DNA of 51,874 nucleotides from a phage. The stretch is from sequence record PZ386979.1, one strand, 5' to 3'. Position 1 is the first letter of the stretch. The number at the start of each line of letters is the position of its first letter. The notes under the pieces are model-generated. The model saw only the letters and a program-made list of their open reading frames with translations, was not told the origin of the DNA and searched no databases. Positions 23,989 to 25,072 of this stretch are shown piece after piece. The position numbers and the translations under genes were made by a program.

Positions 23989-24012
23989 CAAAGGGGCATT
24001 ACGCCCCTTTTT
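23989..24012. terminator. bidirectional terminator after ssb
   Basis: AAAGGGGC-atta-CGCCCCTTTTT. Confidence 0.65.
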
Positions 24013-24256
24013 CACTTTCAGCCATTCCAAGAACAGCAATCACCTTAACAGCAATTCTCTTTGCGAGTTCAGTTTGATGAGCGTTAAGTTTTCCAGTGGT
24101 CATTATTGACAGCATTCCGCTCATACTTCCAAGCCCGTTAAAATCTGACATTGCCGATTTCATAATTGATATTGGTGAGTGACCCTCACCAGCTATTGTG
24201 TGCGCTCTCTCTGAAAGGTCTTTAACTACCTGATCAATTCCTTCACTTTTCGTCAT
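23999..24256 (-). CDS. hypothetical protein
   Basis: 85 aa; AGGAAAAG RBS; stop lies in loop of bidirectional terminator shared with ssb. Confidence 0.35.
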   Translation of the reverse strand: MTKSEGIDQVVKDLSERAHTIAGEGHSPISIMKSAMSDFNGLGSMSGMLSIMTTGKLNAHQTELAKRIAVKVIAVLGMAESEKGA

Positions 24257-24734
24257 TTGCTTTTCCTTCAGGAGTTGATTGCTGTCCTGGCATTACAGGC
24301 CACGGGCTAATTGATTCCCTTTCTGCTACTGGCTTTTCAGGTTCAATTCCTAAAAACTTTCCTACAAAATCACCAACAAAATTTGAGCTATCGCTTACAT
24401 AAACATGCATCCTGTCTAGATCTGCAACAGTAACGCTATTTGGTGCGATCATGATCCTCTGTTGGTGAAAACCGATATACATCACATTAGCCGGACGCTC
24501 AAGAGTTCCCATATTTGGCGCAATTACGCCCATTATCCAACAATAATGAATGTTGCCATCAAGCGGCTCACATCCAGCGTTAAGCCAGTTTACTTTCTGG
24601 TGTGGGAATGCCATTGATGAATCAGTAGCATCACGCCGCAACGACCATTTAACGCCTCCAATCTCAATGATTTGTTTTGGCCTCATTCCGTTGAATTGAG
24701 TCACGCCAGCGCCATTTTGATTAATGTTTTGCAT
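24243..24734 (-). CDS. hypothetical protein
   Basis: 163 aa; AAGGTGA RBS; no recognised motif. Confidence 0.45.
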   Translation of the reverse strand: MQNINQNGAGVTQFNGMRPKQIIEIGGVKWSLRRDATDSSMAFPHQKVNWLNAGCEPLDGNIHYCWIMGVIAPNMGTLERPANVMYIGFHQQRIMIAPNSVTVADLDRMHVYVSDSSNFVGDFVGKFLGIEPEKPVAERESISPWPVMPGQQSTPEGKANDEK

Positions 24735-24748
24735 ATCGGTTCACCTTG

Positions 24749-25072
24749 TTACATTGATTTCATTTTACGCAATGCGCAGATACAAGCGGCAGCAAGATCG
24801 GTTAATTCTTTCTCAATGCCATGATGCGAGCCGTCTGCCTTTTCGGTCATTAGCTCTTTGTACTCCATTTCTACAATCGACATTAAGCCGCCAGACTTGT
24901 CAATGTGCGCGTCCCAGGTCTTAGGATAGTGCTTAGTTCTTTCAATAACACTTCCCATAACTGCATCATGTTCATGATCTCGATCATAATCTTTATCATG
25001 GCCATTTCCTCCAATTACTACTCGCGGCAAATGCACGCGCGGTAAATGATAGCCAGCGACAAGAATTTTCAT
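24749..25072 (-). CDS. MazG-like nucleotide pyrophosphohydrolase (putative)
   Basis: 107 aa; KTWDAH ... EMEYKELMTE ... IEKELTDLAAACICAL resembles the MazG P.WD / EExYE / ELGD helical core; own RBS after terminator. Confidence 0.4.
   Translation of the reverse strand: MKILVAGYHLPRVHLPRVVIGGNGHDKDYDRDHEHDAVMGSVIERTKHYPKTWDAHIDKSGGLMSIVEMEYKELMTEKADGSHHGIEKELTDLAAACICALRKMKSM

What the first reader, a model, noticed from the sequence alone, without database searches (positions are those of the whole stretch)
23999..25072. Three-gene minus-strand cluster including a MazG-like pyrophosphohydrolase
24749..25072 carries a MazG-like helical core (P.WD, EMEYKEL, ELTDL); phage MazG-type enzymes are proposed to degrade alarmone or signalling nucleotides. 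Its two downstream neighbours have no recognisable motifs. The cluster lies between the fiber genes and the ssb terminator, an accessory position.
Basis: inference. Interest (0 to 1): 0.55.

Follow-up and report, generated by a model that had tools for sequence, protein, structure and literature searches.

The report
Small MazG-superfamily enzyme in phage cassette
A T1-like coliphage carries a small protein that belongs to the MazG/HisE superfamily of nucleotide-splitting enzymes, inside an optional four-gene cassette shared by several phage groups; it is a modestly interesting, mostly ordinary accessory module whose target nucleotide is unknown.

Summary
The three minus-strand genes are real. 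The window is a Hanrivervirus (Drexlerviridae), 98.9% identical to phage Fulano1. The 107-aa protein A (24749..25072) has no direct Pfam, NCBIfam or PDB sequence hit. Four lines still place it in the all-alpha NTP pyrophosphohydrolase superfamily:
- A 134-sequence family profile hits AF_0060 (PDB 2P06) at E=2.6e-5; hhalign gives 91.6%.
- AF_0060 itself passes Pfam's MazG and PRA-PH thresholds.
- E70/E73 and E89/D92 are invariant and align to the superfamily's EXXE...EXXD metal site.

The unit is really four genes. A Gly/Cys-rich protein U (25119..25823) precedes A in 30 of 32 related viral loci, with a conserved hairpin between them, and B and C overlap or abut. The cassette occurs in four other phage lineages and is absent from T1. 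Two GenBank records already call A homologues "putative pyrophosphatase".

The parts
24749..25072 (-). Gene A, 107 aa: AF0060-like member of the all-alpha NTP pyrophosphohydrolase (MazG/HisE/dimeric dUTPase) superfamily. Residues 1-30 are disordered and His/Asp-rich with an LPRVHLPRV repeat. Residues 31-106 are helical.
24797..24865 (-). Codons for the putative metal-binding signature E70-x-x-E73 ... (15 residues) ... E89-x-x-D92, on the two long antiparallel helices.
   Evidence: All four residues are invariant in 34 close homologues. They align to EEmdE / ELlD of AF_0060 and EEcaE / EmvD of HisE. In the 134-member family, E70 is kept in 132, E73 in 127, E89 in 96 (N in 25), and position 92 is H in 100 and D in 30.
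24243..24734 (-). Gene B, 163 aa: conserved phage orphan, mostly beta-strand, with invariant Cys/His/Asp/Arg residues (C65, H90, H110, D105, R108).
23999..24256 (-). Gene C, 85 aa: conserved small orphan protein. No structure was predicted for it.
   Evidence: phrog_7239 E=3e-43. Alignment of 18 homologues with 24 invariant columns. No meaningful PDB hit.
24243..24256 (-). 14-nt overlap between the end of B and the start of C (ATGACGAAAAGTGA), implying translational coupling.
   Evidence: ORF coordinates. The junction overlaps or abuts (14, 8, 4, 1 or 0 nt) in all 26 related loci that have both genes and in the annotated genomes of three other genera.
25093..25112 (-). GC-rich hairpin plus T-run between U and A, 20 nt upstream of A's start codon (stem ends at 25093, ATG at 25072). 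Likely a partial terminator or attenuator that sets A-B-C expression below that of U.
   Evidence: Terminator scan. A hairpin sits at the same place in all loci L008-L033, with different stem sequences that keep pairing. It is annotated as a terminator in phage Sergei.
25119..25823 (-). Gene U, about 234 aa (the ORF runs to 25871, but the probable start is Met17). It has a Gly-rich hydrophobic N-terminus, a helical middle with an invariant CCC motif, and a C-terminal GCCGC. It is the first gene of the conserved cassette.
   Evidence: phrog_9288 E=2e-124, aligned from residue 17. Homologues sit directly upstream of A in Sashavirus and Eiauvirus, and the domain is fused to an S74 chaperone protein in Seuratvirus. 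U precedes A in 30 of 32 IMG/VR loci. Alignment.
23990..24010 (.). Palindromic hairpin shared by the convergent ssb gene (+) and gene C (-). It marks the end of the cassette transcript.
   Evidence: Terminator scan. The equivalent bidirectional terminator is annotated in T1.
25964..25987 (-). Hairpin/T-tract between the lateral tail fibre gene (26002..27759) and U.
   Evidence: Terminator scan: 10-bp stem, 7 GC pairs.

Best explanation
Gene A most likely encodes a small, oligomeric, divalent-metal-dependent nucleotide pyrophosphohydrolase of the AF0060-like branch of the all-alpha NTP-PPase superfamily. Two antiparallel helices present E70/E73 and E89/D92 as a metal-binding cluster. By analogy with MazG, HisE and dimeric dUTPases, this cluster would hold the metal-triphosphate and cleave the alpha-beta bond, giving NMP plus pyrophosphate. 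The active site would be completed by dimer or tetramer formation. A is one gene of an optional, horizontally exchanged four-gene cassette, U-A-B-C. U comes first, a conserved hairpin follows it, and A-B-C are read by read-through, with B and C translationally coupled. Shown here: the genes, their conservation, superfamily membership, conservation of the motif, cassette architecture, and absence from T1. Inferred: catalysis, oligomeric state, read-through expression, and any physical A/U/B/C interaction. Unknown: the substrate.
Against: The window protein has no direct Pfam, NCBIfam or PDB sequence hit. With only close homologues the link is weak: E=0.13-0.39 and hhalign 12%. AF_0060 has no demonstrated activity that I could find. 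In the wider family the last ligand is His in 100 of 134 members and E89 is Asn in 25. That is atypical for Mg-dependent NTP-PPases and may mean a different metal or chemistry. The domain is short, about 70 ordered residues. The constant partner is a Gly/Cys-rich protein and the cassette sits next to fibre or morphogenesis genes, which is not a typical setting for nucleotide metabolism. Model coordinates could not be inspected, so clustering of the four acidic residues is inferred from helix register only.
Confidence: 0.6

Rival explanations
1. One reading: A is a counter-defence enzyme that destroys an alarmone ((p)ppGpp) or an immune signalling nucleotide, protecting the phage from abortive-infection systems.
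For: A canonical phage MazG-like enzyme, Atd1, was reported to hydrolyse ppGpp and to relieve TIR-STING toxicity (preprint 10.1101/2022.06.09.495361). The cassette is accessory and patchily distributed, like many anti-defence genes: absent from T1 and present in five lineages.
Against: Atd1 is a classic MazG domain, whereas A does not match Pfam MazG. Cyanophage MazG did not hydrolyse magic-spot nucleotides (PMC6850273 title and abstract). The cassette sits at the end of a fibre or morphogenesis transcription unit behind hairpins, not in an obvious early region. Nothing matched in PADLOC, and no substrate information exists.
Confidence: 0.15
2. A is a house-cleaning or pool-shaping dNTP pyrophosphohydrolase that removes a non-canonical or unwanted (d)NTP during phage DNA replication, like MazG, dimeric dUTPase, MazZ or cyanophage MazG.
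For: This is the general function proposed for the superfamily (Moroz et al. 2005, as cited in PMC2238974). Mycobacterial MazG hydrolyses canonical and non-canonical NTPs (PMC10014863 abstract), and MazZ belongs to the S-2L triad of genes that replaces adenine with 2-aminoadenine (PMC8342488). The cassette lies next to the recE/erf/ssb genes in this window.
Against: In other lineages the cassette is not near replication genes; in Sashavirus it lies between terminase and portal. Its constant neighbours are U, B and C, not nucleotide-metabolism genes. T1 replicates without it.
Confidence: 0.2
3. A is not an enzyme here. It is a metal-binding or scaffolding subunit of a U-A-B-C protein complex that acts at the membrane or in fibre/virion biology, for example superinfection exclusion, ejection, lysis timing or fibre maturation.
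For: U precedes A in 30 of 32 loci. U has a conserved Gly-rich hydrophobic N-terminus and invariant Cys clusters. A has a His/Asp-rich tail and B has invariant Cys/His residues. In one genome the U domain is fused to an S74 fibre-chaperone protein. The cassette usually follows tail or fibre genes. The D-to-H change at the last ligand in most family members fits transition-metal binding.
Against: Near-universal conservation of the EXXE pair and its alignment to catalytic residues of HisE and AF_0060 is most simply explained by catalysis. No evidence of physical interaction or virion association was obtained. The matches of U's N-terminus to HA2 fusion peptides are sub-threshold (E about 0.07-0.1).
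Confidence: 0.2

Closest known systems
AF_0060 of Archaeoglobus fulgidus (PDB 2P06), the AF0060-like family of the all-alpha NTP pyrophosphohydrolase superfamily
   Different: Only about 14-24% identity. It is archaeal and not viral, and it has no His/Asp-rich N-terminal tail. Its own function is uncharacterised, and its tetrameric state was not tested for A.
MazG proper (Pfam PF03819; E. coli MazG, phage Atd1, cyanophage MazG)
   Different: The window protein does not match PF03819 even at E<=1. It has a shorter subunit. The characterised substrates of MazG enzymes cannot be transferred to it.
HisE / PRA-PH (phosphoribosyl-ATP pyrophosphatase, PF01503; PDB 1yvw)
   Different: The hit is not significant on its own, there is no histidine-biosynthesis context, and the hit is weaker than the one to AF_0060.
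MazZ of Z-genome phages (S-2L PurZ/DatZ/MazZ triad)
   Same: A small phage MazG-type enzyme that works as one gene of a dedicated multi-gene module (PMC8342488).
   Different: No PurZ/DatZ-type partners here. The partners U, B and C are orphans, and no homology to MazZ was tested or found.

Membership tests
All-alpha NTP pyrophosphohydrolase superfamily (MazG / HisE / dimeric dUTPase / AF0060-like) | Statistically supported sequence relationship to an accepted member | tested here: met
   Family profile vs PDB: 2p06 E=2.6e-5, 27.3 bits. hhalign 91.6%, E=8e-7. AF_0060 passes the Pfam MazG and PRA-PH thresholds and is assigned to the superfamily by SCOP. With close homologues only, the link is weak.
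All-alpha NTP pyrophosphohydrolase superfamily (MazG / HisE / dimeric dUTPase / AF0060-like) | All-alpha helical subunit that superposes on solved members | tested here: met
All-alpha NTP pyrophosphohydrolase superfamily (MazG / HisE / dimeric dUTPase / AF0060-like) | Acidic metal-binding signature EXXE(12-28)EXXD on adjacent helices (motif definition from my own knowledge of Moroz et al. 2005) | tested here: met
   E70-x-x-E73, 15 residues, E89-x-x-D92, invariant in 34 sequences and aligned to the equivalent residues of AF_0060 and HisE. In the wider family the last residue is mostly His.
All-alpha NTP pyrophosphohydrolase superfamily (MazG / HisE / dimeric dUTPase / AF0060-like) | Dimer or tetramer that completes the active site | not testable with these tools
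   No multimer prediction was available. AF0060 is described as tetrameric.
All-alpha NTP pyrophosphohydrolase superfamily (MazG / HisE / dimeric dUTPase / AF0060-like) | Hydrolysis of a nucleoside triphosphate to NMP plus PPi | not testable with these tools
   This needs a biochemical assay.
MazG proper (Pfam PF03819) | Score at or above Pfam's gathering threshold (22 bits) | tested here: not met
   No PF03819 hit for the window protein at E<=1. Only 3 of 134 relatives hit, best E=3.4e-4.
AF0060-like family (SCOP family within the superfamily) | Closest relative by both sequence and fold; same compact subunit covering nearly the whole chain; shared P-x-x-W plus EXXE...EXXD pattern | tested here: met
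   79 of 88 residues superposed, and P50/W53, E70/E73 and E89/D92 all align.
AF0060-like family (SCOP family within the superfamily) | Tetrameric biological unit and distinct active-site architecture | not testable with these tools
   Described in PMC2238974. No way to test it here.
Phage (p)ppGpp-degrading MazG (Atd1-type counter-defence) | Canonical MazG catalytic domain with activity on ppGpp and protection from TIR-type defence | not tested
   The domain criterion fails. Activity and phenotype cannot be tested with these tools. The precedent is only.

The most novel reading that the evidence does not exclude
U-A-B-C is a self-contained, horizontally mobile accessory system of enterobacterial siphoviruses with a function not yet described. 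In this reading, a membrane-active Gly/Cys-rich protein (U) works with a nucleotide-cleaving or metal-binding AF0060-like protein (A) and a translationally coupled pair of fold-orphan proteins (B and C). Possible roles are superinfection exclusion, counter-defence or control of the infected cell envelope. The wider A family, mostly with an EXXE...EXXH site, would then carry out chemistry different from classical MazG enzymes.
Probability: 0.25. Interest if true: 0.6.

Novelty: new member of a known kind. Interest (0 to 1): 0.35.

Why it matters
It gives a defensible superfamily assignment to a PHROG of unknown function (phrog_9157) that is widespread in T1-like and other enterobacterial siphoviruses. 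It also gives the AF0060-like branch, which has no known function, a large set of viral relatives (162 clusters at 50% identity). It redefines the unit of study as a four-gene cassette that is absent from T1. That makes a clean deletion or transplant experiment possible in phages that are easy to handle and widely used in defence-system screens, such as the BASEL collection. The practical payoff depends on finding the substrate. If the substrate were an alarmone or an immune signal, this would be a new structural class of counter-defence enzyme. If it is a dNTP, this is routine pool sanitation.

Tried and rejected
- Direct scans of A, B and C against Pfam, NCBIfam and PADLOC gave nothing usable. 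The only hits were sub-threshold and look like chance: BP74_N, hotdog thioesterase, arylmalonate decarboxylase, WYL/Csx1.
- A single-sequence phmmer search of A against the PDB gave nothing.
- With close-homologue profiles, the top PDB hits were PA2G4/Ebp1 (E about 0.01-0.05) and the CLEC4M neck repeats (E=5e-4). I rejected both. The first covers only the first helix and loop of a different fold and drops out with the broader profile. The second is seven tiny repeat matches to 'ELTxLKAA'.
- GenBank labels for B ('putative TerL', 'matrix protein') and C ('transcriptional regulator') have no support in any search.
- The C profile gave no real PDB hit.
- The U profile gave only sub-threshold matches to HA2 fusion-peptide regions, probably driven by composition.
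- The ORFs downstream of A in the divergent loci L036-L039 could not be shown to be B or C homologues (hhalign E=0.008 at 5% probability, and E=0.1).
The genome-contig scan found no relatives.
- Literature searches found no study of these genes in Drexlerviridae, the TLS reannotation paper or the BASEL paper.
- Long family members have only low-complexity N-terminal extensions and no informative fusions.

Full report
**What the window is.** The region 23500-26100 is 98.9% identical to Escherichia phage vB_EcoD_Fulano1 and about 94-96% identical to many Hanrivervirus phages (Drexlerviridae, Tempevirinae). The local gene order is recE, a small ORF, erf and ssb on the plus strand. Converging on them from the minus strand are a primase-side gene, the lateral tail fibre gene (26002..27759, with a Peptidase_S74 chaperone domain), a 250-aa ORF, and then the three genes of the finding.

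**Checking the observation.** The three ORFs are at the stated coordinates. They match PHROGs 9157, 8329 and 7239, all labelled 'unknown function', at E=9e-49, 8e-87 and 3e-43. Homologues at 50-73% identity occur in three other phage genera, so these are real, constrained genes. The quoted motifs are present; only 'P.WD' should read P-K-T-W-D. Hairpin/T-tract sites bracket each unit on the minus strand: 27781..27765, 25987..25964, 25112..25093, and the palindrome 23990..24010 shared with ssb.

**Is the 107-aa protein (A) MazG-like?**
- Direct searches fail. There is no Pfam hit at E<=1, no NCBIfam hit and no PDB sequence hit.
- An alignment of 34 close homologues shows a variable, disordered His/Asp-rich N-terminus and a roughly 70-residue core. 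E68, E70, E73, E89 and D92 are invariant, along with P50 and W53.
- A profile of the close homologues only touches AF_0060 (PDB 2p06) weakly, at E=0.13.
- An exhaustive HMM search found 162 representative clusters. A profile of 134 of them hits 2p06 at E=2.6e-5 over almost the whole domain, with HisE (1yvw) second at E=0.057.
- In both alignments E70/E73 fall on EExxE and E89/D92 on ExxD. P50/W53 fall on AF_0060's P-R-P-W.
- hhalign of the same profile against AF_0060 gives 91.6% probability, E=8e-7.
- AF_0060 itself passes Pfam's thresholds for MazG and PRA-PH. SCOP's curators placed it in the all-alpha NTP pyrophosphohydrolase superfamily as a separate family, with a distinct subunit fold, a tetrameric unit and the shared metal-binding motif (PMC2238974).
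- MazG and PRA-PH are also the only Pfam families hit by more than one of the 134 family members.

I conclude that A belongs to this superfamily and is closest to the AF0060-like branch. It is not a member of MazG proper, because the Pfam threshold test was run and not met.

**Caveats on catalysis.** The window protein has the classical EXXE-15-EXXD pattern. Across the wider family, however, the last ligand is His in 100 of 134 members, and E89 is Asn in 25. I found no demonstrated activity for AF_0060. I could not inspect model coordinates, so the clustering of the four acidic residues is inferred from their register on two antiparallel helices.

**The neighbours B and C.**
- B (163 aa) is strongly conserved, with invariant Cys, His, Asp and Arg residues. 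Its model is mostly beta-strand with pLDDT 77.
- C (85 aa) has 24 invariant columns and no meaningful hit.
- The GenBank labels 'TerL', 'matrix protein' and 'transcriptional regulator' for these genes have no support in any search.

**The real unit is a four-gene cassette.**
- In Seuratvirus KurtStettler, Sashavirus Sergei and Eiauvirus eiAU-183, homologues of A, B and C occur in the same order.
- The upstream 250-aa ORF (U, phrog_9288) travels with them. Its probable start is Met17 at 25823. U is free-standing in Sashavirus and Eiauvirus. In KurtStettler it forms the C-terminal part of a 510-aa 'lateral tail fibre chaperone'.
- Among 32 IMG/VR loci found with the A profile, 25 have U-A-B-C, one has U-A-C, one has A-B-C and one has A alone. 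Many of these loci are close relatives of each other, so the counts are not independent events.
- Four divergent loci keep U-A, followed by two ORFs that I could not assign to B or C. In L036, the divergent locus I scanned, the cassette follows a GpJ-like gene and a family-8 glycosyltransferase.
- A GC-rich hairpin lies between U and A in every locus from L008 to L033. The stem sequences differ but pairing is kept, and a T-run is not always present. Phage Sergei's annotators also marked a terminator there.
- The B/C junction always overlaps or abuts, by 14, 8, 4, 1 or 0 nt.
- Surroundings differ: fibre or tail genes in four settings, but terminase and portal in Sashavirus.
- T1 itself goes from ssb through a bidirectional terminator straight to the fibre gene and has no trace of any of the four genes.
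- No close relatives were found in about 185,000 species-representative bacterial and archaeal genomes.

The cassette is therefore accessory, mobile between phage lineages, and apparently confined to phages.

**Mechanism.** The best-supported reading is a small oligomeric, metal-dependent nucleotide pyrophosphohydrolase that cleaves the alpha-beta bond to give NMP plus PPi. It would be expressed by read-through of the hairpin after U, together with a translationally coupled B-C pair. The substrate is unknown.
Nothing in this sequence bears on it.
- dNTP house-cleaning is the default function of the superfamily, but it fits the gene context poorly.
- A serious rival is that A acts as a metal-binding partner of the Gly/Cys-rich U protein. 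The supporting points are the near-constant U-A adjacency, the His-rich tail of A, the Cys/His-rich B and the His variant of the site.
- U's N-terminus is Gly-rich and hydrophobic. It gives only sub-threshold, composition-like matches to HA2 fusion-peptide regions.

**Novelty and score.** Two GenBank records already call homologues 'putative pyrophosphatase', so the core idea is not new. What this work adds:
- a tested chain of evidence for the assignment;
- placement in the AF0060-like branch rather than in MazG proper;
- the large viral family with its His variant;
- the four-gene cassette, its conserved hairpin and gene overlap;
- its absence from T1.

This is a new member of a known kind inside an uncharacterised accessory module. 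Interest is moderate to low at 0.35.

Noticed in passing
window 25119..25871 (-): The upstream protein U (phrog_9288, unknown function) has a conserved Gly-rich hydrophobic N-terminus (GGEAGAAGLGGAVGGLIGSWFGNG), an invariant CCC motif and a C-terminal GCCGC. Its probable start is Met17 at 25823, not the first ATG of the ORF. BASEL records label homologues 'putative sugar-binding protein'; no search here supported any function. PDB matches to HA2 fusion-peptide regions are sub-threshold.
   Followed up: partly
L005 2352..3884 (phage KurtStettler bas22_0024): In this Seuratvirus the U domain forms the C-terminal ~175 aa of a 510-aa 'lateral tail fibre chaperone', after a segment that by eye resembles an S74-type intramolecular chaperone. 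It could be a genuine fusion or a frameshift or sequencing difference. In two ~61-kb IMG/VR contigs whose A proteins resemble KurtStettler's (L024, L026; taxonomy not checked), U sits in a 292-aa stop-to-stop ORF.
   Followed up: partly
protein P0089 (223 aa, on contigs of about 61 kb): A natural or assembly-derived chimera: a U-like N-terminal part joined to the C-terminal half of B, skipping A. It also caused spurious weak 'B' hits on U ORFs in my HMM scan.
   Followed up: no
phage T1, L040 32211..34881: The type phage T1 has no U, A, B or C. Its ssb gene is followed directly by a bidirectional terminator and the tail fibre gene, so the whole cassette is an insertion or deletion polymorphism within Drexlerviridae.
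   Followed up: yes
search hits H13, H14, H30, H35 (records named 'Campylobacter phage' A16a, A15b, A118): Nineteen unannotated records named Campylobacter phage carry DNA matching this E. coli T1-like region; the two listed (A16a, A15b) are 96% identical. This probably reflects contaminating coliphage or mislabelled records rather than a true host jump.
   Followed up: no
L036 164..5929 and L039 120..5983: In divergent, unclassified viral contigs, U and an EXXH-type A follow a GpJ-like tail tip gene and (by Pfam in L036; L039 read by eye) a family-8 glycosyltransferase. They are followed by a protein of about 205 aa and an overlapping ORF of about 75 aa, in the positions of B and C. Homology of these two to B and C is unproven.
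   Followed up: partly
window 24982..25066 (-), residues 3-30 of A: The disordered N-terminus of A carries a short tandem motif (LPRVHLPRV, with variants such as MPRVKLPKVALPR in relatives), followed by a His/Asp-rich stretch that expands to poly-His in some lineages. It could be a docking or metal-binding tail.
   Followed up: no
window 26002..27759 (-): The mechanical ORF for the lateral tail fibre starts at a TTG, but PHROG alignments begin at residue 21 (MAIYRTG...), so the real start is probably about 27699. The C-terminus carries a Peptidase_S74 intramolecular chaperone domain.
   Followed up: no
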